Part shown: positions 26,906 through 52,588 of the stretch, piece by piece
Layout: each line of letters opens with the position of its first letter
Position numbering within the stretch: position 1 is the first letter of the stretch
Program-made: the position numbers and the translations under genes
Notes under the pieces: generated by a model
The model's database searches: none
The model's input: the letters and a program-made list of their open reading frames with translations, nothing else
Told to the model about the DNA's origin: nothing
NCBI GenBank assembly: GCA_016705125.1
Contig: JADIYW010000025.1
Coordinates: 6,722 to 70,721, forward strand
Source: Bacteroidota bacterium
GTDB taxonomy: Bacteria > Bacteroidota > Bacteroidia > Chitinophagales > JADIYW01
Reading direction: 5' to 3'
Length of the DNA stretch: 64,000 bases

Positions 26906-29900
26906 CTATTCTATAATAACTAATTTGCCTAAATATTTTTCTTCTCCATTTGTAATCTCTATAAAGTATAGCCCCCTTGTAACATTTTCCAAAATATAAT
27001 TTTGTATATTTTCTCCTTCAAAAGATTCAAACCTATCTTCTTTAACCACCTTTCCTGTTAAATCAAAAATCCTTAATTGGCTATTTGAATTGGATTTTGA
27101 ATTAAACTTGATGCTAAATTCAGATTTTGCAGGATTTGGTATAATAGTAATTTTTTGTGGTGTCGTATTTATATTTGAAACTGTTGGAGATTGTTTTCCA
27201 ATTTCACCACCGCCTGATTGCAAGACATCTGTTTGGAAGACAAGTCCTCTAACAGGACTTAATCCCTCTTCTCCACAATCACTGGTGATGTCTACCTTAT
27301 AAGAATAAGATTTAGAAGCATCGGAGGCATTTAAACCCCTAATGGTAACCGAATGTTGGTCGCCAGGAACTGAAGTATTGTATGCTGGACCAAAAGTTCC
27401 ATCACGTAACACTTCTCTATATTTGACATAAAATGCTTCAGGCTTGCCTACAATATCCCAATAAATTAACACTTCTGATGGGGTTCGGGCATCCTTAATA
27501 GCGATCACACCATCTGGACCATTTTTACAATCTCCCCCTTCACCACCTAATCCATTTGGAAGTGTTACAAAACCCCATTGGCTCCAATATGAAGGTGGCA
27601 TGTCCTCATTACAATATGACCTTACTGACCATTGATATTTTTTACCTGGCACACAATTATAAATTGTTGCAAAATGCCCCCAATTATAAACATAATTCCA
27701 ATCTCCATTACCGCCATCATCTGGATCAATTCTATATCTTATTTCAAATTGTGATGCAGGAGAATCCCAATTACATTTAAATGCAGTGGAAGAAATTGCT
27801 TCTTCATGAAGGTTTGTTGGTGGATATAAATTACAAAATTCATTTCGAGTCCATATTTCTTTAAAGGCAGTATAATCCCCATAACCTCCATTTCCTGATG
27901 AGCAAATTGCTCTAATCCTAAATTTATACTTTGTATTTTGTACTAAACCATCTCGTATGTGTGTGATAATATCCTCCGGGCTTGCAAAACTAATATTAAA
28001 AGTCACACTACCAAAAGTTGGAGGAAATCCATCGCCTGCTATTGCGCTATATTCTATCTCATAATCTACAGCATTTGCAACTCTTTCCCATTGTAAGGTT
28101 ACTGCATTAACTGAATTACTTTCAAGTTGAAATTTATTTATATTAGGCGTTGCACAACCTCCGGTTGTAAATTTGGGTTGTCCACTCCAATCACTTTCCC
28201 CAGTAGAACAAATTGTTTTTACTCGCCAAAAATATTCTGTTCCTAATTCCAGATTACTTAAAGTTAAAACAGATGTGGTGGGTAAAATTTCATAATAATC
28301 ATACACTCCATTTTCACCTTTTTTAATTTCCAATACCCATTTAATAGGACTCCAACTATTGCTGGTCCAATTAAGAGTGGCTCCATTTGCACTTATATTT
28401 GTTACAAACAATGCACTTGGTGCATTTAGTGTACAATCATCTTTGGTAATAAACTCTTTTTCTACACTCCATGAGCTCGTATCAGGAGCCAAACAGACCG
28501 TTTGAACAATATATTCGTATTTCTTTCCTTCACCTAATCCCGTTAAATTTAGAATATTGCCACCAATATTTGTAGTCACCCAACTACCCATAGGAGGAGA
28601 TAATTTCCTATATTTTATATTATAAGAAACTGCACCAGGAACAGGATCCCAGCTAATTGAAGCTCCACCAATAACGTTTGACATGGCATTAATTCCATCT
28701 GGTAATCTGCAACCAATAGTAGTAAAACTTGATAAGTTACTAAATTCTGATTCCCCTGAAGGACAAATTGGTTTTACTTTCCACCAATATTTTGTTTCAG
28801 GTTCTAAATTTATGGCTTGATAGAAATTAGTGCTTACAAAATAAGTTAAACCAGTTGGATTTCCATCTTTTCTGATACTTACTTCGTATTGTGTGGCTTG
28901 ACTTATGGCCGTCCACTCCAATTTAGCAGCATTTTCAGTTATATTATTAGCTATTAAACCTGCAACTGGAACTAAAGTACATGGTGTTTTGACCACAAAT
29001 GTAGCAATTGGGCTCCATAAACTTGTATCTGGCGACTGGCAAATACTCTGAATCTGAAATTCATAAGTGGCACCATTGGTTAAAAAATTAATATCCAGCG
29101 CATTGCCCGCAGTACTATTTAATATCCAATTTTGAGTACCAACCAAACGGTATCTAATTTTATAATTAATAGCCACATTAATAGTTGTCCAACTTATAGT
29201 CCCTACTCCGAGTGCATTTGAAACGCCTTTGATGTTTGTAGGCAATACGCATTCATCCCATGTTTTAAATGATTTAAAAGAATCTGTAAAATCACTCTGA
29301 CTGGTGGCGCAATTGTTTTTTACTTTCCAAAAATAGGTAGTACCAGGAGTTAATCCTGTTAATTCTAAAAATGTATTCGTAATATTCAAATTTTTAATCC
29401 AAGTACTTGAGCCAACTGGTTTGTACCACAATTCGTATGAAGTAGCACCAACTGCTGCTGTCCAGCTTAATTTGGCTTTGGTGCTTGTGATATTAGAACT
29501 CACTAAATTTGTTGGTGGGTTAAAATTACAAGGTGTTAATGTTGTAAAAGGAAAAATAGGACTAAAAGCACTTGAGTCGGGTGCACTACATTTGGCTTGT
29601 ACTTTAAAAACATAATTTGTCCCTGGCAACAATCCAGTTAATTTGGTTGAATCATTTGCTACATATTTCGTGGTCCAGATATTGCTACTTGCAAGTTTAT
29701 ATTTAACTATAAAAAGCCCTACATCGCCTCCACCAGTTTTCCAAACCAAGGTAGCTTTATTTGTGCCCAAATTTTCAACTCCCAAATTTTTTGGTTCTTT
29801 ACAAATCGGATCAGTAATAAACAAAGTACTCGGACTACTAAAATCACTCGCAGATCCATCCATACAAATACTCTTTACTTTCCATAAATATTCTGTATTT

Positions 29901-32587
29901 GGCATCAAACCATTTAATTTTACAGAAATATTAGGGTTATTTCCTATTGGAAGTGGACCTTTTTGATTTATGCCAATTTTCATACTTGCTGTATCAGGAT
30001 TTGGCGCACTTATTATTGTATCATTTCCACTTGTATTTGCTATTGAATCGCAATTCCAATCATTATCTGATACCTTTTTGAAACAAAAAACGTAGGCTAA
30101 AACTGGAGGATTTGGATTACGTTTCCAATTTAGAGTGGCCGAATAGGCCGAAATGTTTGAGGTATTTATACTCGATTGCAAAGGAGGAAAACAACCGCTT
30201 AAAGTAGTAAAAGTAACATTTGCTGAATAAGCACTCTCAAAACCTGAACCACAAATGCTTTTCACCCTCCATTGATAATTAAGACTACCAGTTAAACCTG
30301 TAATTACAACTGAATTAGAAGTTGGATTTGGTAATACATCAATCCAAGCACCCCAAGTACCATTGGCATTTTTAGGTCGATATTGTACTGAATAGGCCAA
30401 GGCACCACCTGCAACATCCCAAACCAAATTTGCAGAACTTGAAGTAATATTAATTGTATTCATTCCTGTAGGAAGCTCACATAAAACTGGTATAGTACTA
30501 AAACTTGTTATCGGTGTTGACCAATTACTTTCTAAAGTAGCCGAACAAACACTTTTTACTTGCCATTGATAAGCATGGTCGGGGGTTAATCCAACTAAGT
30601 TATAAAAATTTGAACCTGCTGAAAACTCTTGCCATGGCCCCCATGCCCCTGTCGCTTCCTTTTCTCTATACTGTACTTTGTATGATAATGCAGATGGGTT
30701 AGTTGTCCATGAAAGTGTAGCCGAAACAGTAGTAATATTGTTTGTAATTGGGCTCGATGGTGGGTTGCAAGTTAAAGATAATGTTTGAAAAACAGGGTTA
30801 GGTGTTGACGAATAATTGCTTTCACTTCCTCCACAAACCGTTTTTATTCTAAAAGTATAACTTTCACTTGAAGACAAACCACTTAATAAATAAATATTAG
30901 TTGTTGGATTAGGATTTACAACAATCCAATTTGCAGCACCAACCATTTTATATTCAACAACATATGAGGATGATGCGCCAACTGAATTCCAATTTAAAAC
31001 TGCGGAGTTTGTATTTACATTAGAGGCAAATAAATTGATTGGTGCATCGCAAGTAAGTCCAATTGTAGAAAAATTAATAATTGGTGTTGACCAGTCGCTT
31101 TCAATGGTTGGAGAACAAATAGATTTAACTTGCCATTGATAATCTTGACTTGGCAAAAGGGTAGAAATAGTTAATGAGTTTGTAACACTTGGCGCACTCA
31201 CCCAAGCCTCCCAAGCACCGCTAGAATTTTTTTTCCTATACTGTACCATATAAGAAAGGGCTGAGGGAACTGCATTCCAATTAAAGGTTGCTGCTGTCGG
31301 GGTAATATTAGTAGTATTTCCACCAGTCGGAATATTACAGTTAAGTGTTGTGAATAAAATTGATGGACTTGACCAAGCACTTTCTGTAGTGGGTGAACAA
31401 ACTGATTTCACTTCCCATTGATAATTTTTATCCATAGTTAGGCCAGTCGCAGTGAATGAGTTTACGATGCTATTTCCCAAAATCCATGGCCCCCAAGCGC
31501 CAGTTGGTTGTTTCTCTCTATATTGAATTTTATAAGAAGTAGCTCCGGGTACAGTTGCCCATCCGAAAATGGCAGAATTTATAGTAATTCCAGTAGTCGT
31601 TTGGGAAATTGGAACATCACAAGTTAAAGGGTTGGTTTGAAAAGTAGGGTTAGGCGTTGCAGAATAGGCACTTTCTGTGCCATTGCAAATTGTTTTTATT
31701 CTATATACATAAATTGAACCTGGTGTTAAACCCACTAAATTTACACTATTCGTAGTTGGATTAGGGGAGAAAATAGTAAAATTAGGATTTGAGTTTAACC
31801 TATATTCAAATTGATAGGAAATAGCTCCATTAGAAACTGCCCAGTTAATAGTTGCACTATTTATTGTAATATTTGTAGCTGTAAATCCTGATGGCACTGC
31901 ACAAGGACTCAGCGTAGAAAAGCCAATTATTGGAGTTGACCAATTACTTTCTCCAGTACTACATACCGTTTTTACTTGCCATTGGTAATCACTTGATGGG
32001 ATTAAGCCGTTGGCATTAAATGAAATTCCTGTTGGGTCTGGAGTAGGATTTTGCCAGATATCCCAGCTTCCATTTGACAACTTAATTCTATATCTCACCT
32101 TATAGGATTGTGCGCCAACGACTGAAGTCCAATTAAAAGTAGCACTTGTGGTTGTGATGGCTGTAGTAGTGGTATTTGTAGGGTCAAGACATGAATTGAG
32201 TGCAGTGGTAAAGGTATTATTTGCACTATAAGCAGAATTACCACTTGGGCATTTTGACTTAACTTTATATTGGTAAATAGAGCTTGGGGTAAGACCCGTC
32301 AGGTTCAAAGAATTTGTAGGAGATTGTGTGGTTATCCAGGAACCTCCATTTATTTTATGAGCAAATTCATATCCCGTCGCACCATTTACTGGATCACATC
32401 CAACCGTAGCAGTAGTGCTAGTAATATTAGAATGCACTAAATTTGTTGGAACATCACAAGCTAAAGTTTTTTTCAAAACCAAGGTTTCAAAATTAGCATT
32501 TATTCCTAATCCAATCTCTTTCGCCCCTAGGGTGAAAAATGTATTTATAACAAATATAAATCCTACAATAATTTTTAAATTTTTCAT
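26906..32587 (-). CDS. giant secreted/cell-surface protein P1: ~18 Cys-bracketed FN3-like modules + T9SS C-terminal sorting domain
   Basis: The track start at 32629 is a TTG. ATG at 32587 gives the signal peptide MKNLKIIVGFIFVINTFFTLGA. Modules of ~90-125 aa follow the pattern C.xP...NIT..SA.L.W..V.GA.SY.(I/V)QYR......W......N...L.GL.P...YQWQVKS.C. The C-terminus is IIPNPAKSEFSIKF...LRIFDLTGKVV...GLYFIEI...KLVIIE. Confidence 0.85.
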   Translation of the reverse strand: MKNLKIIVGFIFVINTFFTLGAKEIGLGINANFETLVLKKTLACDVPTNLVHSNITSTTATVGCDPVNGATGYEFAHKINGGSWITTQSPTNSLNLTGLTPSSIYQYKVKSKCPSGNSAYSANNTFTTALNSCLDPTNTTTTAITTTSATFNWTSVVGAQSYKVRYRIKLSNGSWDIWQNPTPDPTGISFNANGLIPSSDYQWQVKTVCSTGESNWSTPIIGFSTLSPCAVPSGFTATNITINSATINWAVSNGAISYQFEYRLNSNPNFTIFSPNPTTNSVNLVGLTPGSIYVYRIKTICNGTESAYSATPNPTFQTNPLTCDVPISQTTTGITINSAIFGWATVPGATSYKIQYREKQPTGAWGPWILGNSIVNSFTATGLTMDKNYQWEVKSVCSPTTESAWSSPSILFTTLNCNIPTGGNTTNITPTAATFNWNAVPSALSYMVQYRKKNSSGAWEAWVSAPSVTNSLTISTLLPSQDYQWQVKSICSPTIESDWSTPIINFSTIGLTCDAPINLFASNVNTNSAVLNWNSVGASSSYVVEYKMVGAANWIVVNPNPTTNIYLLSGLSSSESYTFRIKTVCGGSESNYSSTPNPVFQTLSLTCNPPSSPITNNITTVSATLSWTTNPSALSYKVQYREKEATGAWGPWQEFSAGSNFYNLVGLTPDHAYQWQVKSVCSATLESNWSTPITSFSTIPVLCELPTGMNTINITSSSANLVWDVAGGALAYSVQYRPKNANGTWGAWIDVLPNPTSNSVVITGLTGSLNYQWRVKSICGSGFESAYSANVTFTTLSGCFPPLQSSINTSNISAYSATLNWKRNPNPPVLAYVFCFKKVSDNDWNCDSIANTSGNDTIISAPNPDTASMKIGINQKGPLPIGNNPNISVKLNGLMPNTEYLWKVKSICMDGSASDFSSPSTLFITDPICKEPKNLGVENLGTNKATLVWKTGGGDVGLFIVKYKLASSNIWTTKYVANDSTKLTGLLPGTNYVFKVQAKCSAPDSSAFSPIFPFTTLTPCNFNPPTNLVSSNITSTKAKLSWTAAVGATSYELWYKPVGSSTWIKNLNITNTFLELTGLTPGTTYFWKVKNNCATSQSDFTDSFKSFKTWDECVLPTNIKGVSNALGVGTISWTTINVAINYKIRYRLVGTQNWILNSTAGNALDINFLTNGATYEFQIQSICQSPDTSLWSPIATFVVKTPCTLVPVAGLIANNITENAAKLEWTAISQATQYEVSIRKDGNPTGLTYFVSTNFYQAINLEPETKYWWKVKPICPSGESEFSNLSSFTTIGCRLPDGINAMSNVIGGASISWDPVPGAVSYNIKYRKLSPPMGSWVTTNIGGNILNLTGLGEGKKYEYIVQTVCLAPDTSSWSVEKEFITKDDCTLNAPSALFVTNISANGATLNWTSNSWSPIKWVLEIKKGENGVYDYYEILPTTSVLTLSNLELGTEYFWRVKTICSTGESDWSGQPKFTTGGCATPNINKFQLESNSVNAVTLQWERVANAVDYEIEYSAIAGDGFPPTFGSVTFNISFASPEDIITHIRDGLVQNTKYKFRIRAICSSGNGGYGDYTAFKEIWTRNEFCNLYPPTNLHEEAISSTAFKCNWDSPASQFEIRYRIDPDDGGNGDWNYVYNWGHFATIYNCVPGKKYQWSVRSYCNEDMPPSYWSQWGFVTLPNGLGGEGGDCKNGPDGVIAIKDARTPSEVLIYWDIVGKPEAFYVKYREVLRDGTFGPAYNTSVPGDQHSVTIRGLNASDASKSYSYKVDITSDCGEEGLSPVRGLVFQTDVLQSGGGEIGKQSPTVSNINTTPQKITIIPNPAKSEFSIKFNSKSNSNSQLRIFDLTGKVVKEDRFESFEGENIQNYILENVTRGLYFIEITNGEEKYLGKLVIIE

Positions 32588-32621: not shown

Positions 32622-35600
32622 TTATTCAAATACTACAAATTTGATTGCTGTTTTTTCTTTCCCATCAAATAATTCTAAATAGTATAAGCCACTTGTAAGG
32701 TTAGTAAAATTGTAATCTCTTTTATTGTATCCATTAATAGGTTCGAACCATTCAGATTTTATTAATTTCCCAGTTATATCATAAATATTTATGGTAATAG
32801 ATTGTTCCTTTTCTGAATTAAAATTCAAGCTAAAAATTCCTTTTGTGGGATTTGGAATTATTGCAATATCTTTTAAATTTATATTTATTCCTGTTAAAGT
32901 TGTTTTGCCACTACCAAAAGATTTTGGATCCGTTTGAAAATTAATAACAGCAGGAGTGCTTAATCCGTCTGAACCGCAGTCAGCGATTACCTCCACGGTG
33001 TATTGGTAACCTTTAATATCAGACTTTAATCCTTTCAATATAATAGAATTTTCGTTCCCTCTTACTGAATAATTAGTTGCTGTACCAAATGTGCCATCTT
33101 GTAGAACTTCCTTTTCTTTTACAAGATGTCCTTCGGGATTTCCTCTGATAACCCAAGAAACGGTAGCTTCAGAAGTCAAATCTGCATTTTTTTCCACCTT
33201 TATGGCATCTGGTCCTTCTCCACAACCTCCAAAACCAGTAGGTGTTGAAAAAGTTCTGATTACACTCCAATTTCCCCAGCCATTATTTGCACATATTGGT
33301 CTTATTTGCCAATCATAACTTGTACCTGACCACAAACCTCCAATTAATAACTTCTTTACATTCCCAACCGTTACAGCTGTCCATGTCCAATCAGGACTTG
33401 CCGTAAATTTATACCTTATTTCATAATTCAAGGCAGTCGGAACGATACCTAACCAGCTTAATTCTACTGTGTTTTGTTGCAAATTCCATTCATATAATGT
33501 GTTTACAGTCCCAACATTGCACTGGCTAAAGGTATAAGCCGAACTAGCTGTACTCCAATTGCTATAAGCTAATGGTGTATTACAAAAACTAGCTACTCTG
33601 AAAAAATATAGTTTATCTTCATTTAAACCTGTAAGCGTAATTGAATTTGTAGTTGATGTTGTTTCAGTCCAATTTGAGCCATTTGTAAGGCTATATTGAA
33701 TTTTATAACCCGAAGTTCCTGGAACCGCATTCCACGAAACTAATATACTAGATAGTGATTTTCCAACTCCACTTATATTTGTAGGAACAGGACAATCATT
33801 TGAAATACCAGGCAATGTAGTGAAGGAATGTTCTATACTATTTCCTTGACCACTCGAACACCAAGTATTTACTTTCCAATAATATTTAGTTGCTGGTAAT
33901 AAACTATTTAATTGGAGCGAATTGGTATTTGATGTTTTAGAGGTCCAACTAGCAGGAATATTAGGGTCGCTTCCATCTACTCTGTACAAAATGTTATAAA
34001 AATTGAATATATTACCATCTGCAACAGTAATTGGATTCCAATTTAATTTTGCTGAATTATTTGTTATATTACTTGCATCTAAGCCAGTTGCACCCATTGT
34101 GCAAACAGTTTGAACCACAAAGCTTAAAACACTACTCCAAGGACTTGTTTCATTTGCCGAACAATTTGTCTGAATTTGATACTCATATTGTATGCCATTT
34201 TCTAGACCTGTAAGGGACAAAGAATTTCCAATTACATTTTCTTCCGTCCAATTTGTTGTGTTTATTTTTCTATACCTTATTGTGTACGAAATTGCCCCAA
34301 TATTAATTGCATTCCAACTTATAGTTGCAATTCCTACATTGGTTGAGATTGCTTGAATACTGTCTGGCAATTTACAGGATGTGGTAAAAGTATCCGTTTG
34401 GGCTGAAAAATCGCCGTAACCTATCGCACATTTATTTCGCAATTTCCAAACATAGGTTGTATTGGGCAATAAACCAGTAAGAATATAAGGATTAGTAACC
34501 ACCAAAGTAGTAAATGTGGGATCGTTTATTTTTTTATAAGACAGTTCGAAATTTACTCCATTAATTGAAGTCCAGCTCAAACTAGCTGTAGTACTTGTAA
34601 CTGAAGTTTCTTTTAAATTTTTTGGAGTGTCAAAATTACAAGCTGTTAAGGTGGTAAAGTTTACACTTGCAGTATACGCGCTTGTATCAGGTGATGAGCA
34701 AGTGGTTTGTACTTGAAATTCATACGTTGTGTTAGGTAAAAGTCCACTTATTTTAATAGAATCTTTGATTGAATACTTTGTTGTCCAAACCGATGTACCC
34801 ACTTTTCTATACCTTATTTTAAATAATTGGATATCGCCACCAGTATTTGTCCATTTTAGTGTTGCATTATCAAATCCAATTCTTACCACATTTAAGTTTT
34901 TGACCATTCCACACAAGGAATCTGTCTTAAATTTTGTAGTTGGATTGCTATAATCGCTGGATTCTCCATTAATACAAATACTTTTTACTTTCCATTCATA
35001 TTCTGTATTTGGCATTAAGCCAGCAATAGGATATGTAAAAGGTGGGTCAATTCTAAAGCCAATGCGCATAGAGTCGGCACCAATGCCAACTAAAGTATCA
35101 TTTGGGTCATTTATACTATTTAAAATAGTATCACAATTCCAAACGGTATCTACTATTTTTTTGTAGCAAACCAAATAGGCTATTGTAGGCGGATTACTAA
35201 GTTTTGTCCATGATAAAGTCGCTTTTGTACTTGAAATTCCATTGGTGGTTAAACCTATAGGTGCTGTACAAATAAAAGCTGGGGTTGTAAAAGAACTTAC
35301 AATACTATAAATTCCTGTATCTCCAACAGAACAAATACTTCTTACTTTAAAATAATAAGTGGTGTTGGCTAATAAATTATTGGCTGTTGCTGAATTTGTA
35401 GAAATAGCGATAGGAGGACTTGTAAAATTATTCGGGTTTGTTGAAATTTGATATTGATAAGCAACTGCACCAACAACTGCCTTCCAATGCAAAATTGCAT
35501 TTGTAGTAGTAATATTAGTTGTATATAAACTATCGGGAGCAGCACAAGATGAAAGTGTCTTGAATGTTTTATCAGCACTAAATGGACTCTGCTGGTTTGC

Positions 35601-38600: not shown

Positions 38601-39323
38601 TGATGATTGTGTAATACTTGTCGTTGATTGATTTACAGGAATTGCACAAGCACTTAAAGTTGTAAATTCAGTACTGGGATCTGTATAATCACTTGAGGAA
38701 GAACCGCTACAATTTGTTTTTACATGCCATTGGCAGTTAGTTGAACCCGATAAACCTGTTACATTATATGTTGTTGATGTAGTGGAAGGGGGAGAAAACC
38801 AGGCTCCCCATGTTCCATTTGCCGCCTTTTGTCTATATTGTAAGCTGTATGATTGTGCTCCACTTACTGCAGTCCATGAAAAGGTTGCTGTTGTTATGCC
38901 TATATTTGTTGTTTGCATACCAGTAGGCAAAGCACAAGGATTTGGACTCGTATTAAATGAAATATTTGCACTATAAGCACTTGTGCCAGTAGGACATACC
39001 GCTTTTACACTGAATTGATATGTTGAACCAGGAGTAAGCCCTGTTAAAGCCCTTGTATTGCTAGTTGAATTTACAGTAAGATAAGTCCCTCCATTTATTT
39101 TATATCGCCAAGTATATTGGGTAGCTCCCACCACCGAATTACAATTCATAGTAGCAGTAGTAGGAGTAATATTTGTAGCTGTTAATCCTGATGGTACATC
39201 ACAATTAATATTAAATTTTTCCAAATTAATATTCTTCGAAAAGATAGGTTGAAAAAAACCAAAACTGAATTGGAAAAGAAAAAACAAAATTAATTGAACT
39301 ACTCTTAATTTTAAATTATTCAT
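32622..39323 (-). CDS. giant secreted/cell-surface protein P2: ~22 FN3-like modules + T9SS C-terminal sorting domain
   Basis: 2233 aa, ATG at 39323, with a signal peptide. Module order is collinear with P1 and P3. CTD: IIPNPTKGIFSLNF...INIYDITGKLI...GLYYLEL...KFVVFE. Only 34 nt separate its stop from the P1 ATG. Confidence 0.85.
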   Translation of the reverse strand: MNNLKLRVVQLILFFLFQFSFGFFQPIFSKNINLEKFNINCDVPSGLTATNITPTTATMNCNSVVGATQYTWRYKINGGTYLTVNSTSNTRALTGLTPGSTYQFSVKAVCPTGTSAYSANISFNTSPNPCALPTGMQTTNIGITTATFSWTAVSGAQSYSLQYRQKAANGTWGAWFSPPSTTSTTYNVTGLSGSTNCQWHVKTNCSGSSSSDYTDPSTEFTTLSACAIPVNQSTTSITQSSATLNWAAVAQATSYKIQYREKYGNGQWSPWVNTTTNPTASTYVLTNLAAGTEYNWQVKSVCSASLESDWSSPISAFTTVSSGCLSPLNATTSNITTSSALLSWTAVGGVTGYKIQYREKGTNGTWGNWLNLNATTNSYNLSSLNLAKEYQWQVKSICSPTLESAWSTPVNSFTTLACNLPTNPIATSITTTTAVLGWTSGMGVTSYKIQYREKQSNGSWGAWIQLISATNSFSLNNLTPDKDYQWQVKSVCSGGLESSWTDPISTFTTVALTCLTPSNPITVNIKQTSATFKWSLVSGVSTYKIQYREKNALGIWGNWMSAGTSTTDSFNLTGLTPDKEFQWQVKSVCSPTLESAWSSPINNFSTLGCNEPSALATIGITTTSAILNWNAVNGVISYKIQYREKLTTGAWGAWIPLTSIVDSIIITNLIPDTDYQWQVKSVCSATLESSWTTPIKAFTTVALTCLTPSNLSTINIGLNTATINWSPVSGVMSYKIQYREKLPTGAWDVWVPLPAPSDSLILVGLTPDKNYQWQVKSVCSPTLEGSWSTPIELFTTLGCNEPINLTTTNNTGYSVLLNWTTMVGATSYSLQYRVKLTGGTFGNWLPASSNTNSYLLTGLTPETDYQWQVKSICLATLESVWSTPIANFSTINPCSQPTNLLAFNITPISALLKWNVVPSAISYILDYKLVVDNDWITVGVNADSFLLTGLSPDKKYVFRVKAQCNGIQSPFSPTPNPTFQTLPSNCQIPNNLNTTFVTSTAASFSWAATDSNFIVQYREKLAGGTWGNWISIPLDTNFVRVTGLKPSTDYQWRVKRICPPSLESDFSDFQPFTTSSPCLGPIIGQVTNLTQTTANLNWTVPGGPIGLLLFVGGGPTGLFVNLAPNVNTYNLTNLDPGTTYYFSIQAICLPQDTSAISFSNFTTVSNCSISTPIGLNELNIGTTQAQLNWTTVNGAQYYKIDFRKANQPNNWQTDTSVFTTKMIVGLTANTNYVWKIRAICIANQQSPFSADKTFKTLSSCAAPDSLYTTNITTTNAILHWKAVVGAVAYQYQISTNPNNFTSPPIAISTNSATANNLLANTTYYFKVRSICSVGDTGIYSIVSSFTTPAFICTAPIGLTTNGISSTKATLSWTKLSNPPTIAYLVCYKKIVDTVWNCDTILNSINDPNDTLVGIGADSMRIGFRIDPPFTYPIAGLMPNTEYEWKVKSICINGESSDYSNPTTKFKTDSLCGMVKNLNVVRIGFDNATLKWTNTGGDIQLFKIRYRKVGTSVWTTKYSIKDSIKISGLLPNTTYEFQVQTTCSSPDTSAYTASVNFTTLTACNFDTPKNLKETSVTSTTASLSWTSINGVNFELSYKKINDPTFTTLVVTNPYILTGLLPNTTYVWKLRNKCAIGYGDFSAQTDTFTTSCKLPDSIQAISTNVGIATISWNAINIGAISYTIRYRKINTTNWTEENVIGNSLSLTGLENGIQYEYQIQTNCSANETSPWSSVLSFVVQTVCTMGATGLDASNITNNSAKLNWNPITVADGNIFNFYNILYRVDGSDPNIPASWTSKTSNTNSLQLNSLLPATKYYWKVNTWCSSGQGNSIEHSFTTLPGISNDCPVPTNISGVGKSLSSILVSWNAVPGTSGYKIQYSLTNGSNWTETTSTTNSITLTGLNEDKLYFFRVASFCNTPLAYSNWSTASSAYTFSQCNVGTVNTLYEWNLQQNTVELSWLGIVPTALNYEIRYKFTASPDWTWTAVTVGNVKKLLIGGLWSGTSYDWQIRPICANNGWGNWSVIRTFSTPTGFGGCGEGPDAIKVEKNADLTSEATVSWVIRGNPEGHLVKEKEVLQDGTFGTATNYSVRGNENSIILKGLKSDIKGYQYTVEVIADCGSDGLSTPAVINFQTDPKSFGSGKTTLTGININLKDIAIIPNPTKGIFSLNFNSEKEQSITINIYDITGKLIKSEWFEPINGYNKRDYNFTNLTSGLYYLELFDGKEKTAIKFVVFE
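36650..38750 (-). repeat. intragenic tandem array of ~282-292-bp FN3-module units (includes a ~570-bp two-module super-repeat)
   Basis: The plus-strand motif (t)tac(t/c)tgccattg(a/g)ta (reverse of YQWQVKS) recurs at ~36721, 37003, 37291, 37573, 37863, 38146, 38433 and 38725. Junction strings ggtgttaaacaagttaatgctacagttgtaaa (~37770) and ggggttaaacaagttaaagctaccgttgtaaa (~37200) lie ~570 bp apart. Confidence 0.7.
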
Positions 39324-39591
39324 AATATTTCTTTTTATTAAAATATAATTTGTTAGAATTACGAAAAGAGGGTATAAATTATTTTAAAAAAGTTTAAAAG
39401 CTAATTATCATAAATTAACTATTTTACTAATTCAAATTTAAACTAATGGTAAAGCTTATTTTATTACAATTTTTCGCATTTGTCAATAATAAATATTCAA
39501 TTATTGGAGATTTTTAGGCTTTTAAAAATTTTAAAATGCTGACTATAAACACATTATCACATTACATTTTTTTAACAAAAAAGTACTTTTT

Positions 39592-39618
39592 AAAAAAAAA
39601 GGGTAGCTAATGCCACCC
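39592..39618 (-). terminator. putative terminator after giant gene P3
   Basis: Minus strand reads GGGTGGC-atta-GCTACCC (one mismatch) followed by T9. It starts 25 nt after the stop at 39643. Confidence 0.5.
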
Positions 39619-39642
39619 TTTTATCAAACAAAATGATTTACC

Positions 39643-42600
39643 TTACTCTGCAATAACCACTTTTGAAGTTGTTTTTATCCCATTATTAATCATATCTACA
39701 AAATAAATGCCTTTTGATATGCCTTCCAAATTGAACTGTTTTGTATTTATTCCTGTAGAAGTTGTAAATTCTTCGTATGCTATTGTTTTTCCAGTTAGAT
39801 CAAAAATCCTTAATGTAACATTTGATTCTTCCGTAGTTTCAAATCTAACGTCAAATATTCCACGTGTTGGATTTGGAACTATTTTCATATTTTGTAATGT
39901 TGTTACTTTATTCGACCCAGAACTCTTTTCGTAAATGGACTTCTCAGGATTGGTTCTAAAATCAATTATAGTTGGTTCTGACAATGTTTCTCCTTCTATA
40001 ACATCTGATGGAATACATTCAGTTATTATTTCAAATCTATATTCCTGGTCAAATTTGAGATTCGATAATTCAATTGAATTTATGCCACCCTCTATTGATC
40101 CATTTATTGCCGTTCCATACTCACCATCGTCTGTTCCTCCACCATCACCTGTGCCACCATCTGTCCCGCTTGGTTTAATTTTTTCTCTTAATTTAGTATA
40201 ATATTGAGTTACAACACTTGCATCCCTAGGTAGCCATGAAATAGTTGTTTTAGTATTTATGTCAGTTATACTATTTTCTTTTGGTGTCGCAACTACTGAT
40301 TCAATTTTGGTACATTTACCATCACCATCACCTCCTTGTAAACCACATGCTGTTACTAAATCCCTATTTTCGCTCCAATCACTAGATCCCGTAGGGCAAT
40401 TCGCTCTAACCCTCCAATGGTAACGGGTACAAGGCGCTAAGTTGGTAAGGGTAACTGTATTGGTTGAACTAGTTACTTGTAAAGACCATGGTGTGCCACT
40501 ATCTGATTCCTTTCTATATTGAATAGTATAATTTATTACTCCTGGAGGTATGTCATTTCCGATATTAAATCCAACAATACAAGGGATACAAAGATTACAA
40601 AACATTCCGTTCCAAAAACATTCCCAAGAATCCCAAGATTGAATTGGAGAATCTCCAAATTCATTAAAATTCCATCGAAGACCAGCACTAGTTAATTGAA
40701 TATTCTTATTTCGAGGATGTGTTGGTGGCAATAAGTTACACGTGGTTTTAATTGTTACTGACATTGTACTGCTCCAACTGCCTATATTAAAATTGCTACA
40801 TAAGGTTCTTATTCTAAAATAGTAGGTGGTACCTGAAGTTAATCCCGTCAATACAATAGTAGTAGTGGTGCTTGTAACAATTGTCCATGGACCATCTGGC
40901 GAAGTGCTATAATTCAATTCATAAGAAAGCGCACCAGGTACTGCTTGCCAAAAAAATGTGGCTCCGTCTAAAGAATTTGACCAAGACTCAATTTGTTGTG
41001 GCACTTCACATAAAAGTGGCGTAAAACAAGAAGTATTGCCATATTCACTCTCGCCAGAATTGCATATTGATTTTACCCTCCAACAGTACTTAACACCAGT
41101 TTCCAAGCCTGAAATAACAAAGGTATTCGTTGGTGCTGCTACCTCATACTCTTGTCCTCCGTTGGCAGGATCGCTTTCTTTTCTAATTTTTATTCTATAT
41201 TTTATGATTCCAAAACTAGGATTTACTGCTGTCCATGACAAAGTAGCTCCATCATAAGTTATGGCCGATTCGGTTAATCCTCCAGGACCATTCAAGGTAC
41301 AATTATCTTTTATTGTTACTGTTTTTACTGGACTCCATACACTTAAATCATTTGGTCCACAAATGGTTTGTACTTGATACTCATAAGTAGCACCCAAAGT
41401 TAATCCTGATAAATTAACTGTATTGGTTGACTGAGTTGAGTTTATCCAATTTGGATCACCCACTTTTCTGTATCTAAAATTATAACTTATTCCACTTTGA
41501 TTTGAAATAGCCCAAGTAATTAATGCTGTACCCAAGGAATTTGAAACACCTGTTATATCATTTGGTAATTTACATTCTTCATTTGTTTTAAATGTAGCCA
41601 AAGGTGAAGACATTGGTCCAAAACCAGTAGCACAAACTCGCCTAACTTTCCAAACATAATTAGTATTAGGCATAAGTCCTGTTAGTGTCTTCCAATTATC
41701 CATCTGAGTAATAACAATAAAATCCATTGCTCCAGCTTCTTTATACGACAATTCATATCCATTTGTATTATCACCAAACCAACTCCATTCCAACAATACT
41801 GAAGTAGAAGTGATTTGAGACGAAGTTAGATTAGTTGGTGCTACAAAATTACATGGAGTTAATGTTTTCCATGGAAAAGGAGGCGAGCTATAATCAGATA
41901 CATCAGGTGAAGTACATTGAGACAATATTTTAAACTCATAATTCGTATTCGCTAGCAAAGTAGTTATTCTTAATGTGTCTTTTGTTCCTGCTGCAAAACG
42001 ATTTATCCAACTAGTGGCACCAACAACTCTATATTGAATTCTAAACAAAGAAACATCACTTCCAGCTGGTATGTTCCATTTAAGTGTAGTGGCTGTTGCT
42101 GTAATATTACTTACCATTAATCCATTAGGGATTTTACATAATCCATCTGTTGTAAATGGGATAAGTGAAGAGAAAGGACTTTCAGATCCATTCGAACATA
42201 TACTCTTTACCTTCCAAACATAATCAGTACTTGGCATTAATCCAGAAGCTGTGGCAGACATATACTCTACAGGAGGCAACGGTGGCAAGCCCATTCTTCC
42301 TGAACTATCTGGTAATGGATCTAAAATTACCCCACCAGTTCCTGCACTAGTATTTTGAACAGTATCACAATTCCAAGTTGTTTCACTTACTTTTTTGTAG
42401 CATACATAATAAGACGCGGTTGGTGGTTTAGGCTGTTTCAACCATTTAAAAGTAGCTTTGGTAGAACTGATATTGTTTGTAGTTAATTCTACCGGAGGTA
42501 CACAATTATAAGGTGCGGTAGCAAATTGAAAATGAGGACTAAATAAGGTACTTGTATCATTGCCTTCACAAACCGTTTTAACTCTAAAATAGTAAGTTGT

Positions 42601-45186
42601 ATTAATTATTAAGCCATTTAATAAATATGAATTTGTAGTGGTAGTTATAAATGTTGTTGGCCAAACAGCAGGATTAGTGGTTACTTGAACTAAATACTTA
42701 ATAGCACTATTTATGTTTGACCAATTCAATATTACGCTTGTAGTGGTTATGTCTGTTACACTTAAATTATTAGGAAAATTACATGCTGAATTTGTTTTAA
42801 ATTCTCTAATATTACTATAATCGCTTTCCAAGCCTCCACCACAAACACTCTTTACTCGCCATGTATAGTTTGTATTCGGTTGTAGGTTTGCAATGGAAAC
42901 GGAATTAGTTGGACTTGTACCTGTAAATCCATTTGCCCAATTTGGATCACTTGATAATCTATATTGATAAATGTATTGTTGTGCTCCAAACATTTGTGTC
43001 CAAGTTAGTGTGGCTTCATTAGCTGTTACATTCAATTCGGATAAATAAATAGGAGGTGTTTCGTTACATGGTGTATTCACAATTATTGTTCCTGTGACAC
43101 TAAAACTAGTTGTATCTCCTATGGCACAAATCGTACTAACTTGATAATTGTAGGTTGCTCCTGCCGTTAATCCAGTGGCTATAAAGGAGTTACTTGGGTG
43201 ATTAACTGAACCAAAATTTGTCCAATTGGGCTCTGTTGATAGCTTATACCTTATATGGTATCCATAGGCATTTGGTACTACATTCCACGTTATGGTAAAT
43301 GCATCAGTTGAGTTGGAGATTGCGTCAATTCCTCCTGGAAAACTACAACCCAATGTAGTAGAAAAAGCCGTAATTGGTGTTGTCCATGCACTTTCTAGAG
43401 TTGGAGAACAAACACTCCTCACTTGCCATTGGTAATCTTTATCCGCATTCAATCCCGTTAGATTATAGAAATTAGATCCTGCTGTAAATTCTTGCCATGT
43501 GCCCCAACTTCCATTTGGCTGCTTTTCTCTATATTGAATCTTATAGGATGAAGCAGAAGGATTTACCACCCAATTAAGCGTGGCGGAGCTGCTTGTTATG
43601 CCTGTTGTCGTTAAGCCTGTTGGTGGGTTGCAAACCAAACCAAGAGTATGAAATAATTCACTCGCTGACCAGCCACTTGATAAAGTTGCTGTACAGTTGC
43701 TTTTTACTTGCCATTGATGATCCTTATCCGATACTAATCCTGTTGCATCATAAAACAAAGTGGTTACAGGGGTTGGAACGTCAGTCCAAGTGGATGGCCA
43801 TGAACCATCTGGATTTTTTGCTCTATACCTAATACTATAAGATATTGCACCCGGTACAATATTCCAATTAAATTTAGCACTAGTGGTGGTAATATTTGTG
43901 GTAGTGGTATTTGTTGGGGACGTACATGCTAGGGTTGAATAGTTCTTTATCGGATCCCAAGCACTTTCCACATTATTGGCACATACACTTTTTACTTGCC
44001 ATTGTTGATCTCTATCTTCTGCAAGACCACTCACATCATAAAATATAGCCGTAATAGTAGTATTTGGTTCTGTCCAATTTGTAGGCCATGTTCCATTTGT
44101 ATTTTTTTGTCTATATTTTACTTTATATCCAACCACTCCAGCTACGGGCCACCAGTTAAATCGTGCACTATTGGTAGTAATATTAGTTGTTTTGTTGCTA
44201 TCCGCTATCGGCGGGTCACACGTTAATGAAAGGGTTTGAAAAGTAGGATTTGGAGTAGCTGAACATGCTACAATACCCCCCGCACAATTTGTACACACTT
44301 TATATGTATAACTTGTATTTACATCTAATCCTGTTAAACTATATGATGTATTTGGAGTATTTATAAGAATCCAGTTTGGATCACTTACTTTCTTATATTC
44401 CAGGTTGTAGGAAATAGCTCCATTACCAGCCGTCCAACTAAGATTGACAGAGGTTGTAGTAATATTACTTGAAGAAAGATTTGTTGGTGCTCCACATGCT
44501 GACTGAGTTGTAAATAATATTAAAGAAGAATAATCTCCTTCATTGGCACCACATATCGCCTTTACATGCCACTGATGGTCTCTATTTTCTGTCAATCCAT
44601 TCGCAGTATGTGTTGGATTGGTTGGATTAGGAGTAACAGTAACCCATGTTGCTGGCCATGATCCATCAGTATTTTTTTGTCTGTACTGTACTTTATAAGC
44701 TGAAGCTCCTGATACCGCTGTCCAATTAAAGGTAGCTGATGAAGTGGTTATATTTGTCGTAGTTGGATTAGCAGGAACACCACAAGCACTGCCCTGTGTG
44801 GTAAATGAAGAAGAAGCACTAAATGCACTACTTCCACTTGGACAAATGGCTTTAACCCTATATTGGTAATCAGAAGCTGGTGTTAAACCCGTAATTAGTT
44901 TAGAATTGGTTGTAGAGCCTACGGTAACCCAAGTTCCTCCTGTTATCTTATACGAAAATTGATAATTGGTTGCACCACTTACTACCGCACAACCCAATGT
45001 TGCCTCCGTACTGGTAATGCCCGTGGCAGTAAGTGATGTGGGCACATCGCAGGCCATCGGTTTATAAATTATAGACTTATTCTCTTTAAAAACAATGGTT
45101 TTATTTTGTTCTCCGCCAATTGTAGGTAGACTAAAAACTACTACCATAAAAAATAAAATAATGTTGTTTAGTCCTTTCATATCCAT
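39643..45186 (-). CDS. giant secreted/cell-surface protein P3: ~17 FN3-like modules + T9SS C-terminal sorting domain
   Basis: 1847 aa. ATG at 45186 (alternative Met3) with a signal peptide. Same module grammar as P1 and P2. CTD: KIVPNPTRGIFDVRF...LRIFDLTGKTI...GIYFVDM...KVVIAE. Confidence 0.85.
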   Translation of the reverse strand: MDMKGLNNIILFFMVVVFSLPTIGGEQNKTIVFKENKSIIYKPMACDVPTSLTATGITSTEATLGCAVVSGATNYQFSYKITGGTWVTVGSTTNSKLITGLTPASDYQYRVKAICPSGSSAFSASSSFTTQGSACGVPANPTTTNITTSSATFNWTAVSGASAYKVQYRQKNTDGSWPATWVTVTPNPTNPTHTANGLTENRDHQWHVKAICGANEGDYSSLILFTTQSACGAPTNLSSSNITTTSVNLSWTAGNGAISYNLEYKKVSDPNWILINTPNTSYSLTGLDVNTSYTYKVCTNCAGGIVACSATPNPTFQTLSLTCDPPIADSNKTTNITTNSARFNWWPVAGVVGYKVKYRQKNTNGTWPTNWTEPNTTITAIFYDVSGLAEDRDQQWQVKSVCANNVESAWDPIKNYSTLACTSPTNTTTTNITTTSAKFNWNIVPGAISYSIRYRAKNPDGSWPSTWTDVPTPVTTLFYDATGLVSDKDHQWQVKSNCTATLSSGWSASELFHTLGLVCNPPTGLTTTGITSSSATLNWVVNPSASSYKIQYREKQPNGSWGTWQEFTAGSNFYNLTGLNADKDYQWQVRSVCSPTLESAWTTPITAFSTTLGCSFPGGIDAISNSTDAFTITWNVVPNAYGYHIRYKLSTEPNWTNFGSVNHPSNSFIATGLTAGATYNYQVSTICAIGDTTSFSVTGTIIVNTPCNETPPIYLSELNVTANEATLTWTQMFGAQQYIYQYRLSSDPNWANGFTGTSPTNSVSIANLQPNTNYTWRVKSVCGGGLESDYSNIREFKTNSACNFPNNLSVTDITTTSVILNWSNINSAIKYLVQVTTNPAVWPTTFITTTTNSYLLNGLIINTTYYFRVKTVCEGNDTSTLFSPHFQFATAPYNCVPPVELTTNNISSTKATFKWLKQPKPPTASYYVCYKKVSETTWNCDTVQNTSAGTGGVILDPLPDSSGRMGLPPLPPVEYMSATASGLMPSTDYVWKVKSICSNGSESPFSSLIPFTTDGLCKIPNGLMVSNITATATTLKWNIPAGSDVSLFRIQYRVVGATSWINRFAAGTKDTLRITTLLANTNYEFKILSQCTSPDVSDYSSPPFPWKTLTPCNFVAPTNLTSSQITSTSVLLEWSWFGDNTNGYELSYKEAGAMDFIVITQMDNWKTLTGLMPNTNYVWKVRRVCATGFGPMSSPLATFKTNEECKLPNDITGVSNSLGTALITWAISNQSGISYNFRYRKVGDPNWINSTQSTNTVNLSGLTLGATYEYQVQTICGPNDLSVWSPVKTVTIKDNCTLNGPGGLTESAITYDGATLSWTAVNPSFGIIKYRIKIRKESDPANGGQEYEVAAPTNTFVISGLETGVKYCWRVKSICNSGESEYGNTSCFTPLLCEVPQQIESWSNSLDGATFFWQAVPGALSYELNYSTSPDGPWTIVTSTTTTIVLTGLTSGTTYYFRIRTLCSNFNIGSWSSTMSVTIKTTCNLLPPTHPRNKNIQLTSAGLRWNFNEFGDSPIQSWDSWECFWNGMFCNLCIPCIVGFNIGNDIPPGVINYTIQYRKESDSGTPWSLQVTSSTNTVTLTNLAPCTRYHWRVRANCPTGSSDWSENRDLVTACGLQGGDGDGKCTKIESVVATPKENSITDINTKTTISWLPRDASVVTQYYTKLREKIKPSGTDGGTGDGGGTDDGEYGTAINGSIEGGINSIELSNLKFDQEYRFEIITECIPSDVIEGETLSEPTIIDFRTNPEKSIYEKSSGSNKVTTLQNMKIVPNPTRGIFDVRFETTEESNVTLRIFDLTGKTIAYEEFTTSTGINTKQFNLEGISKGIYFVDMINNGIKTTSKVVIAE

Positions 45187-52582: not shown

Positions 52583-52588
52583 TTATAT

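What the first reader, a model, noticed from the sequence alone, without database searches (positions are those of the whole stretch)
26906..45186. Three tandem, collinear giant genes (~18 kb) built from 57 Cys-bracketed FN3-like modules, all T9SS cargo
P3 (39643-45186), P2 (32622-39323) and P1 (26906-32587) have the same build. Each has a signal peptide, then 17, 22 and 18 modules respectively, then a Por/T9SS C-terminal sorting domain.

Nearly every module starts with Cys (C-x-x-P) and has a second Cys in the ...YQWQVKSxC... strand. This suggests one disulfide or other Cys-based feature per module.

Module types occur in the same order in all three proteins. One example is a long module with an extra Cys pair: AYVFCFKKVSDNDWNCDS (P1), AYLVCYKKIVDTVWNCDT (P2) and SYYVCYKKVSETTWNCDT (P3). 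Another is the final non-canonical module ending DCGxxGLS. This points to whole-gene triplication followed by divergence and module gain or loss.

P2 and P1 are 34 nt apart with no hairpin between them. P3 and P1 are each followed by a hairpin plus T-run.

The size, the tandem paralogy and the T9SS targeting suggest a variable adhesin, sheath or S-layer-like surface system.
Basis: partly seen in the sequence, partly recalled or inferred. Interest (0 to 1): 0.65.

Follow-up and report, generated by a model that had tools for sequence, protein, structure and literature searches.

The report
Three giant disulfide-stapled FN3 surface fibres
An uncultured Bacteroidota bacterium carries three adjacent genes for 200-240 kDa secreted proteins, each a long string of small fibronectin-type-III beads that probably has one internal disulfide staple per bead; this is a well-built example of a known kind of bacterial surface fibre, not a new system.

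Summary
Three ORFs lie on the minus strand: P3 39643-45186, P2 32622-39323 and P1 26906-32587. Each encodes a signal peptide, then 17, 22 and 18 FN3 modules, then a type A T9SS sorting domain.

Every module starts with Cys and has a second Cys at the end of strand F. In 1,748 modules from 120 homologues the two Cys are gained and lost together, module by module. This supports one disulfide inside each module. It could not be measured, because the models come without coordinates.

AlphaFold and Foldseek confirm FN3 folds, including the "non-canonical" last module.

A related organism has the same collinear trio, with modules matching 1:1 (53-83% identity). Paralogous modules are only about 25-60% identical, apart from one exchanged module at 68%. 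The triplication is therefore old. Module gain and loss is confined to the N-terminal array.

P1 is 1893 aa and 99.3-99.8% identical in 11 assemblies, so "variable" is not supported.

New here:
- a conserved compound promoter in front of P3 and of P2 (P2-P1 form one unit);
- a decayed fourth paralogue at 45515-45928;
- a conserved third Cys in the tip module.

Best reading: co-regulated, stalk-only, T9SS-exported surface fibrils about 60-80 nm long. This is a new member of a known kind, of modest interest.

The parts
39643..45186 (-). P3: 1847 aa. Signal peptide, 17 FN3 modules, disordered linker, type A T9SS sorting domain.
32622..39323 (-). P2: 2233 aa. Signal peptide, 22 FN3 modules, type A T9SS sorting domain.
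26906..32587 (-). P1: 1893 aa from the ATG at 32587. Signal peptide, 18 FN3 modules, type A T9SS sorting domain. Starts 34 nt after the P2 stop codon.
45276..45329 (-). Compound promoter of P3: TTGACAA-N7-AAATTGTAA, then 23 nt, then CAATTTTG (close to the Bacteroidetes -7 consensus TAnnTTTG). It ends 89 nt before the ATG.
39433..39486 (-). Compound promoter of the P2-P1 unit: the same box, then 23 nt, then TAAATTTG. It ends 109 nt before the ATG.
39597..39622 (-). Terminator-like hairpin (11 pairs) plus T-run after P3.
26855..26879 (-). Terminator-like hairpin (11 pairs) plus T-run after P1.
45515..45928 (-). Relic of a fourth paralogue. Only the last strand of the final module, the linker and the sorting domain remain (41% identical to the P3 C-terminus, E 2e-25). 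No signal peptide. It has its own terminator-like hairpin at 45495-45463.
44785..45051 (-). P3 tip module (aa 46-134) with three Cys. The extra Cys replaces the strand-B Trp.
38937..39203 (-). P2 tip module (aa 41-129) with three Cys.
32192..32458 (-). P1 tip module (aa 44-132) with three Cys.
29804..30193 (-). P1 long module (aa 799-928). It has an extra Cys pair on the C and C' strands and a low-confidence insertion of about 30 aa rich in D[ST][AILVMT] sequons.
34914..35270 (-). P2 long module (aa 1352-1470).
42139..42504 (-). P3 long module (aa 895-1016).
40579..40668 (-). P3-specific insertion in the BC loop of module 16, with four Cys (WECFWNGMFCNLCIPC). It is nearly identical in the orthologue.
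39646..39879 (-). P3 sorting domain (aa 1770-1845).
32625..32861 (-). P2 sorting domain (aa 2155-2231). Modelled as a beta sandwich after a disordered linker.
26909..27145 (-). P1 sorting domain (aa 1815-1891).

Best explanation
P3, P2 and P1 are three anciently duplicated genes, transcribed as two units from the same promoter type (P3 alone; P2 with P1).

Inferred pathway. This follows what is known for type A T9SS cargo, for example in Porphyromonas gingivalis; none of it was tested here.
1. Each product is exported by Sec.
2. It folds in the periplasm into a rod of 17-22 FN3 beads, about 60-80 nm long at about 3.5 nm per bead.
3. It is passed through the type IX secretion system by its C-terminal type A sorting domain.
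4. It probably stays on the cell surface by its C-terminal end. The conserved three-Cys tip module then points outward.

The disulfide staple. Each bead most likely carries one internal disulfide between its first residue and the Cys at the end of strand F.
- Such a staple takes about 75 of about 94 residues out of the force path.
- Only the roughly 20 residues between one staple and the next can be pulled out.
- The chain is then a stiff tether that barely extends and resists proteases.

Function. No catalytic or known adhesive domain is present. The proteins therefore act as fibrils or spacers: a long-reach adhesive or protective coat.

Shown: gene structure, FN3 and sorting-domain identity, Cys covariation, FN3 folds, conservation of the trio, and the shared promoter motif.

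Inferred: disulfide formation, secretion and anchoring, rod length, and the mechanical and adhesive role.
For: Identity of the parts:
- fn3 and type A sorting-domain matches are far above threshold.
- N-terminal signal peptides are visible in the sequences.
- An AlphaFold model of P1 703-1019 has pLDDT 81. Its best Foldseek matches are three-domain FN3 fragments of fibronectin, Tie2 and tenascin, at E about 1e-17.
- The final module plus sorting domain model as two beta sandwiches joined by a disordered linker. They match FN3 pairs at E 6e-8.

The Cys pair:
- Both Cys are invariant in 47 of 47 canonical modules.
- In 120 homologues, 1,345 modules have both Cys, 354 have neither and only 49 have one.
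- Cys-less modules embedded in Cys-bearing arrays have lost both Cys of the same module. The first and last modules of arrays keep both: 190 of 249 and 196 of 235, with few singles.
- That pattern fits pairing within a module, not pairing between neighbouring modules.
- From established knowledge of FN3 topology, not measured here: the start of strand A and the FG loop lie at the same pole.

Conservation of the trio:
- A related organism has the same collinear trio of 1826, 2032 and 1711 aa, in different flanking genes.
- Orthologous modules are 53-83% identical. Paralogous modules are about 25-60% identical, apart from one exchanged module at 68%.

Regulation:
- The motif TTGACAA-N7-AAATTGTAA-N23-YAnnTTTG occurs only in front of P3 and P2 in the window. 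None are expected by chance.
- It occurs in front of both orthologues in the relative.

Known analogues:
- Fibrillar-adhesin-like proteins with Por_Secre_tail anchors are a catalogued class in Bacteroidetes (PMC8286594).
- Disulfides in the Ig-like domains of the type 1 pilus were studied for their mechanical role (PMC6048123; only the title and abstract lines in the listing were read).
Against: - The Cys-Cys distance could not be measured, because the models come without coordinates.
- No T9SS machinery gene and no dsb gene is in the window. The rest of the genome was not available.
- No adhesive domain is detected, so 'adhesin' is an inference from architecture.
- Type A cargo can be released instead of anchored.
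- Each protein has at least one Cys without an obvious partner, in the tip module. The simple picture of one disulfide per module is therefore incomplete.
- There are no expression data.
Confidence: 0.6

Rival explanations
1. The three proteins co-assemble into an S-layer-like lattice or sheath around the cell, as the two tandem T9SS-exported S-layer proteins of Tannerella forsythia do.
For: - The tandem paralogous genes all carry T9SS sorting domains.
- They share a promoter motif, which suggests co-expression.
- The trio is conserved as a unit in a relative.
- A conserved unpaired Cys in each tip module could cross-link chains.
Against: - Rods of 17-22 beads, with a disordered linker before the anchor, are the build of fibrils, not of lattice subunits.
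- The three lengths differ, and module number changes between relatives. A fixed lattice would not tolerate that easily.
- Similarity to known S-layer proteins was not tested.
Confidence: 0.1
2. They are gliding-motility adhesins carried along the cell surface, like SprB or RemA of Flavobacterium johnsoniae.
For: - They are giant repetitive T9SS cargo in a Bacteroidota genome.
- From memory: RemA also uses a type A sorting domain.
Against: - The sorting domains are type A, not the type B of SprB.
- No PorP/SprF-like gene lies next to the genes.
- No lectin or other binding domain is detected.
- No gliding gene is in the window.
Confidence: 0.08
3. The FN3 arrays are substrate-capturing or substrate-loosening tethers for polymer foraging (polysaccharide or protein), as proposed for FN3 and Ig spacers in secreted glycoside hydrolases.
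For: - The same Cys-bracketed FN3 modules occur in homologues fused to metalloproteases, subtilases, a GH18 chitinase and phosphatases. This is seen in the Pfam lists, for example P0088, P0041 and P0031.
- FN3- and Ig-like spacers of F. johnsoniae ChiA are suggested to bind chitin (PMC7426924).
Against: - P1-P3 have no catalytic domain at all.
- No SusC/SusD-type or hydrolase genes flank the trio. The TonB-dependent receptor at 19090-22068 is 5 kb away, on the other strand, with housekeeping genes in between.
Confidence: 0.15
4. The paired Cys do not form a disulfide within each module. Instead they link neighbouring modules (strand-F Cys to the first Cys of the next module, 20 residues apart), or they bind metal or serve redox chemistry.
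For: - The 20-residue spacing is as regular as the 74-residue spacing.
- In the first module the extra Cys lies 20 residues after the first Cys.
- P3 has a CX6CX2CX2C insertion that could bind metal.
Against: - Cys are lost module-wise. Terminal modules keep both Cys although they lack a neighbour on one side.
- From FN3 topology (established knowledge): the end of strand F and the end of strand G lie at opposite poles, about 3 nm apart.
Confidence: 0.05
5. The three-gene array is an assembly artefact of a repeat.
For: - The content is repetitive and modular.
- Other genes in the window look split, which suggests indel errors.
Against: - Module DNA copies are only 60-81% identical and no tandem repeat is detected.
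- The same three genes with the same lengths are present in an independent NCBI contig whose proteins differ by 4-6 residues.
- P1 is 1893 aa on at least 11 contigs of up to 262 kb.
- A diverged relative has the same trio.
Confidence: 0.01

Closest known systems
[quoted passage not shown] 2021, PMC8286594)
   Same: Long multidomain surface proteins built from repeated Ig/FN3-type 'stalk' domains, with a T9SS C-terminal domain as the anchor.
   Different: No adhesive domain is detected in P1-P3, so they are stalk-only. Every stalk module carries a conserved Cys pair. Three paralogues are kept side by side under one promoter type.
Type A T9SS cargo, for example the P. gingivalis gingipain RgpB, whose sorting domain is a beta sandwich (PMC4804311)
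   Same: An N-terminal signal peptide plus a C-terminal beta-sandwich sorting domain of about 75 aa that matches TIGR04183.
   Different: The passenger is a 190-230 kDa FN3 rod, not an enzyme. Cleavage of the sorting domain and attachment to lipopolysaccharide are assumed, not shown.
SprB and RemA gliding adhesins of Flavobacterium johnsoniae (recalled from memory)
   Same: Very large repetitive T9SS-exported surface filaments.
   Different: SprB uses a type B sorting domain and a cognate SprF. Here the domains are type A and there is no sprF-like neighbour. The repeat type also differs.
Tannerella forsythia S-layer proteins TfsA and TfsB (recalled from memory)
   Same: Tandem co-expressed genes for large T9SS cargo with Ig-like domains that cover the cell.
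   Different: Those form a 2D lattice and are heavily O-glycosylated. P1-P3 are bead-on-string rods, and the O-glycosylation sequon is not enriched overall. Sequence similarity was not tested.
Covalently stabilised adhesin domains: disulfide-bearing type 1 pilus domains (PMC6048123) and isopeptide-bonded Gram-positive pilins and adhesins (PMC12617251)
   Same: One intradomain covalent cross-link per Ig-like domain of a load-bearing surface fibre. This is a functional analogy.
   Different: Different fold subtype, and a different bond position or chemistry. Here the domains are joined in a single polypeptide rather than by strand complementation.
Eukaryotic FN3 arrays (fibronectin, tenascin, titin, contactins)
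   Same: The best structural matches and the same Pfam family.
   Different: Only 15-20% identity. The eukaryotic modules lack the first-residue and strand-F Cys pair.

Membership tests
Fibronectin type III domain (Pfam PF00041) | Profile match above the gathering score. | tested here: met
   373-508 bits against a cut-off of 25, in 14-20 stretches per protein.
Fibronectin type III domain (Pfam PF00041) | Seven-stranded beta sandwich with FN3 topology. | tested here: met
   AlphaFold models have pLDDT 81 and 75. Foldseek's top hits are FN3 arrays at E 1e-17 and 6e-8. This includes the long module and the final module, which my own sequence profile missed.
T9SS type A cargo (TIGR04183 / PF18962) | C-terminal sorting domain that matches the type A model above its cut-off. 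| tested here: met
   TIGR04183 scores 37-46 bits (cut-off 23) and PF18962 scores 49-52 bits (cut-off 27), at the extreme C-terminus of all three proteins.
T9SS type A cargo (TIGR04183 / PF18962) | N-terminal Sec signal peptide. | tested here: met
   Read directly from the sequences: a short basic N-region followed by 15-20 hydrophobic residues in all three. No dedicated predictor was available.
T9SS type A cargo (TIGR04183 / PF18962) | The host encodes the T9SS machinery (GldK/L/M/N, SprA/Sov, PorU, PorV). | not testable with these tools
   None is among the window ORFs of 100 aa or more. Only 64 kb of the genome is available. NCBI names the host as Bacteroidetes/Bacteroidota.
T9SS type A cargo (TIGR04183 / PF18962) | Secretion, cleavage of the sorting domain and surface attachment. 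| not testable with these tools
   Needs proteomics or genetics.
Fibrillar adhesin (sense of PMC8286594) | Tandem stalk domains. | tested here: met
   17, 22 and 18 FN3 modules.
Fibrillar adhesin (sense of PMC8286594) | Cell-anchoring domain or motif. | tested here: met
   Por_Secre_tail is listed as an anchor in that survey.
Fibrillar adhesin (sense of PMC8286594) | A recognised adhesive domain. | tested here: not met
   Pfam and NCBIfam report only FN3-type families and the sorting domain. The tip module and the P3 Cys-rich insertion are candidates only.
SprB-type gliding adhesin | Type B sorting domain with an adjacent PorP/SprF-family gene. | tested here: not met
   The sorting domains are type A. 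The neighbours are an OmpA-family gene, an unknown 214-aa ORF, an ECF sigma factor and small membrane proteins.
S-layer protein (TfsA/TfsB type) | Self-assembly into a 2D lattice, and sequence relationship to known S-layer proteins. | not tested
   No comparison with TfsA or TfsB was run. Lattice formation needs microscopy.
Disulfide-stapled Ig-like fibre domain (functional analogy only) | The two conserved Cys of each module lie within bonding distance and are oxidised. | tested here: inconclusive
   Covariation strongly supports an intramodule pair. The structure tool returns no coordinates, so the distance was not measured.

The most novel reading that the evidence does not exclude
The Cys-bracketed FN3 module is an undescribed, widespread 'short-circuited' building block of Bacteroidota surface fibres. 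Because the staple joins residue 1 to the end of strand F, the load path runs staple-20 residues-staple along the whole rod. This gives a tether that cannot unfold under force.

In this clade, the three conserved paralogues of different length each end in a tip module with one unpaired Cys. They would use that thiol to cross-link covalently to each other or to neighbouring cells, building a disulfide-linked fibril mesh that contributes to aggregate formation.
Probability: 0.1. Interest if true: 0.6.

Novelty: new member of a known kind. Interest (0 to 1): 0.3.

Why it matters
Large T9SS-exported repeat proteins are abundant in environmental Bacteroidota, but almost none has been studied.

This locus is a clean case: three conserved paralogues, a shared promoter motif and one Cys pair per module. 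The Cys pair proves to be a general feature of about 100 of the 120 closest homologues, including enzyme-bearing ones.

If the staple is real, it predicts unusual mechanical and proteolytic robustness, and it would be a useful engineered scaffold. It would also give a simple sequence rule for recognising this module type.

On present evidence the finding adds detail to a known class. It does not reveal a new system.

Tried and rejected
1. Scan of GTDB species genomes with P1. Seven pattern matches, none a relative.
2. Second scan, with the three-module alignment. It found only distant relatives (26-36%) in a Bacteroidia and a Chitinophagaceae MAG. The organism could therefore not be placed more precisely than 'Bacteroidota bacterium', and copy number in close genomes could not be surveyed there.
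3. Measuring Cys-Cys distances. Structure prediction returns no coordinates and nothing is written to /data.
4. PDB sequence search with two canonical modules. It returned only generic eukaryotic or designed FN3 at E 5e-8 or weaker. There is no solved close relative with this Cys pattern.
5. Looking for a regulon by scanning metagenome contigs for the promoter motif. There were 6 hits: one is the same P3 upstream region, and the other five have no comparable gene downstream and look like chance.
6. Bacteroidetes O-glycosylation sequon D[ST][AILVMT]. It is not enriched overall (3, 10 and 4 sites against about 5-7 expected). It is clustered in the long-module insertion.
7. OmpA-family neighbour as a conserved partner. 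Rejected: it lies downstream here, but in the relative the OmpA-like genes are upstream and of a different type.
8. ECF sigma factor upstream as the dedicated regulator. It is not conserved next to the trio in the relative, so this stays open.
9. A first version of the promoter pattern, with N8 instead of N7, found nothing because I miscounted. It was corrected.
10. Literature searches for Cys-bearing FN3 in T9SS cargo. Nothing directly relevant was found. The library is limited, so this does not prove novelty.
Full report
**What is there**

Three long ORFs lie head to tail on the minus strand: P3 39643-45186 (1847 aa), P2 32622-39323 (2233 aa) and P1. For P1, the ORF listing starts at a TTG at 32629. 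The ATG at 32587 gives 1893 aa and a normal signal peptide, and it is the start used in public annotations.

- Pfam fn3 matches the three proteins at E 4e-114, 6e-156 and 9e-115.
- Each C-terminus matches Por_Secre_tail and NCBIfam TIGR04183, the type A T9SS sorting domain, above the curated cut-offs.
- No other kind of domain is reported.

**Modules and cysteines**

Cys positions alternate with spacings of about 20 and about 74 residues along all three proteins.

- In an alignment of the 47 modules of normal length, the first residue and the residue ending strand F ('...W.VK..C') are Cys in every row.
- Extra Cys nearly always come in pairs. Examples are the C/C' hairpin pair of the long module and the F/G pair in P3 module 14.
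- The exceptions are the first module, which has a third Cys in place of the strand-B Trp, and P2 module 2.
- The 'DCGxxGLS' ending holds for P1 and P2 but not for P3.

**Is the Cys pair a disulfide, and which Cys pair up?**

I built a profile from the 47 modules and aligned 1,800 modules from the 120 best homologues.

- Of 1,748 modules that could be scored, 1,345 have both Cys, 354 have neither, 11 have only the first and 38 have only the second.
- Where a Cys-less module sits inside a Cys-bearing array, it has lost both of its own Cys. The preceding module keeps its strand-F Cys and the following module keeps its first Cys. Examples are in P0010, P0024, P0037, P0043 and P0060.
- First and last modules of arrays keep both Cys: 190 of 249 and 196 of 235, with only 17 and 3 singles.

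This is the pattern expected for a bond inside each module. It is not expected for a bond between the strand-F Cys and the next module's first Cys.

It also fits FN3 topology, in which the start of strand A and the FG loop lie at the same pole. That point is established knowledge, not measured here. I could not measure distances, because the structure tool returns no coordinates.

The Cys-bracketed module is not special to this locus. About 100 of the 120 homologues have it, including proteins with protease, chitinase or phosphatase domains.

**Fold**

- An AlphaFold model of P1 703-1019 (canonical, long, canonical module) has mean pLDDT 81 and shows three beta sandwiches. Only the insertion of the long module (model residues 151-182) is below 50.
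- The extra Cys of the long module fall on adjacent strands (127-136 and 143-148).
- Foldseek against the PDB returns three-domain FN3 fragments of fibronectin, Tie2, tenascin and contactins at E about 1e-17.
- My module profile does not detect the final module. It nevertheless models as a seven-strand sandwich (pLDDT 77-91), followed by a disordered linker of about 25 residues and the sorting-domain sandwich. This model matches FN3 pairs at E 6e-8.

**Not an assembly artefact, not variable**

- Module DNA copies are 60-81% identical, and Tandem Repeats Finder reports nothing.
- An NCBI metagenome contig carries the same upstream genes and the same three genes with the same lengths. The proteins differ by 4-6 residues from those of the window.
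- The P1 cluster has 56 members. Eleven full-length ones are all 1893 aa and 99.3-99.8% identical, on contigs of up to 262 kb. Release factor 1 mostly differs by 1-3 residues of 356 among its cluster members (one member by 13).
- A few shorter members end in frameshift-like tails.
- NCBI names the proteins 'MAG: fibronectin type III domain-containing protein [Bacteroidetes bacterium]'.
- From memory, this accession series belongs to long-read activated-sludge MAGs. I did not verify that link (only shows that such a project exists).

**Evolution**

A Logan contig from a related organism has the same collinear trio of 1826, 2032 and 1711 aa in entirely different flanking genes.

- Orthologous modules match 1:1 at 53-83% identity.
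- Paralogous modules are about 25-60% identical, apart from one exchanged module described below. The triplication therefore predates the split of the two organisms.
- P2 has two more modules than its orthologue, and so does P1. All of these lie in the N-terminal 'YKIQYREK' array. The C-terminal two thirds are stable.
- P3 module 6 is 68% identical to P1 module 7 but only 49% identical to its positional orthologue. This indicates an exchange of one module between paralogues.
- Upstream of P3, the ORF 45515-45928 keeps only the last strand, the linker and the sorting domain of a fourth copy. It is 41% identical to the P3 C-terminus (E 2e-25), has no signal peptide and has its own terminator.

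**Transcription**

- Terminator-like hairpins follow P3 and P1. None lies in the 34-nt P2-P1 gap, which is 2 nt in the relative.
- Upstream of P3 and of P2 lies the same compound motif: TTGACAA-N7-AAATTGTAA, then exactly 23 nt, then (T/C)AnnTTTG. The last element matches the Bacteroidetes -7 consensus TAnnTTTG, which I recall from the literature.
- The motif occurs twice in the window even when two mismatches are allowed, against zero expected. It occurs in front of both orthologues in the relative.

There are thus two co-regulated units: P3 alone, and P2 with P1.

**Interpretation**

The data fit T9SS-exported, stalk-only fibrils built from FN3 beads with one staple per bead.

- At about 3.5 nm per FN3 domain (general knowledge), the rods would be about 60, 77 and 63 nm long.
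- By analogy with type A cargo, the C-terminus is cell-proximal, so the three-Cys tip module is distal. That module is among the best conserved between the paralogues (56-61%).
- A staple from residue 1 to the end of strand F leaves only about 20 residues per module in the force path. The rod should therefore hardly extend under load. This is comparable in purpose to the disulfides of type 1 pilus domains (PMC6048123) or to isopeptide bonds in Gram-positive adhesins (PMC12617251).
- The class 'fibrillar-adhesin-like protein with Por_Secre_tail anchor' is already catalogued for Bacteroidetes (PMC8286594).
- Whether the fibrils adhere, protect or space the cell from its surroundings cannot be decided from sequence.
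- S-layer, gliding-adhesin and polymer-capture readings remain possible but have less support.

**Verdict**

- The finding is a new member of a known kind and its interest is modest.
- The most useful new points are the covariation evidence for an intramodule disulfide in a widespread module type, the conserved trio with its shared promoter motif, the relic fourth copy and the odd Cys in the tip module.

Noticed in passing
window 45515-45928 (-), terminator-like hairpin 45495-45463: An orphan T9SS sorting domain without a signal peptide or passenger. It is the relic of a fourth paralogue of the giant genes, 41% identical to the P3 C-terminus.
   Followed up: yes
window 46753-47331, 46453-46749, 46050-46319, 45876-46019 (all -): An ECF-type sigma-70 factor followed by two small paralogous membrane proteins (MKRKP... 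N-termini) and a truncated third copy that runs into the orphan sorting domain. It lies directly upstream of P3, but it is not next to the trio in the related organism.
   Followed up: partly
window 44785-45051, 38937-39203, 32192-32458 (-): The first (tip) module of all three proteins and of their three orthologues has a Cys in place of the strand-B Trp. Only 9 of 1,800 homologous modules have a Cys there. Each protein therefore has an unpaired Cys.
   Followed up: partly
window 40579-40668 (-), P3 aa ~1507-1536: A P3-specific insertion of about 30 residues in the BC loop of module 16, with CX6CX2CX2C (NEFGDSPIQSWDSWECFWNGMFCNLCIPC). It is almost identical in the orthologue, although the module as a whole is only 68% identical. 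It is a candidate functional or metal-binding site.
   Followed up: partly
window 29804-30193, 34914-35270, 42139-42504 (-): The low-confidence insertion of the long module holds 8 of the 17 D[ST][AILVMT] sites of the three proteins (the Bacteroidetes O-glycosylation sequon, recalled from memory). 'C-D-[ST]-[IV]' directly after the second extra Cys is invariant in 7 sequences.
   Followed up: partly
window 43356-43563 vs 30493-30700: P3 module 6 resembles P1 module 7 (68% aa, 71% DNA) more than its own positional orthologue (49%). This is a sign of module exchange between paralogues.
   Followed up: partly
window 1197-17591 (-): A surface-polysaccharide biosynthesis cluster: asparagine synthase-type amidotransferases, UDP-GlcNAc 2-epimerase, WbqC, GNAT, DegT-type aminotransferase, hexapeptide transferase, flippase. 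Two genes look split: Asn synthase at 13407-14105 plus 12148-13332, and flippase at 10538-11236 plus 9957-10553. These are either pseudogenes or indel errors of the assembly.
   Followed up: partly
window 47554-48102 and 48337-49107 (-): An LCIB-type beta-carbonic-anhydrase-like gene lies next to a bestrophin-family channel gene. The pairing recalls algal carbon-concentrating components and is unexpected in a Bacteroidota heterotroph.
   Followed up: no
window 50541-53158 (-): A small island with a ParE toxin (50541-50846), a Fic/DOC protein (51399-52016) and a DUF7677 protein (52589-53158).
   Followed up: no
L002 19802-20437 (-): In a distant relative (GCA_963853145.1), a single 3238-aa Cys-bracketed FN3 / T9SS gene lies directly next to a DsbA-family gene. 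This is anecdotal support for disulfide formation.
   Followed up: no
window 55893-58229 (-), 58405-59652 (+), 61327-62508 (-), 7584-9946 (-): Several sizeable ORFs (778, 415, 393, 397 and 389 aa) have no Pfam hit. Of these, the 778- and 415-aa ORFs also gave no NCBIfam hit.
   Followed up: no
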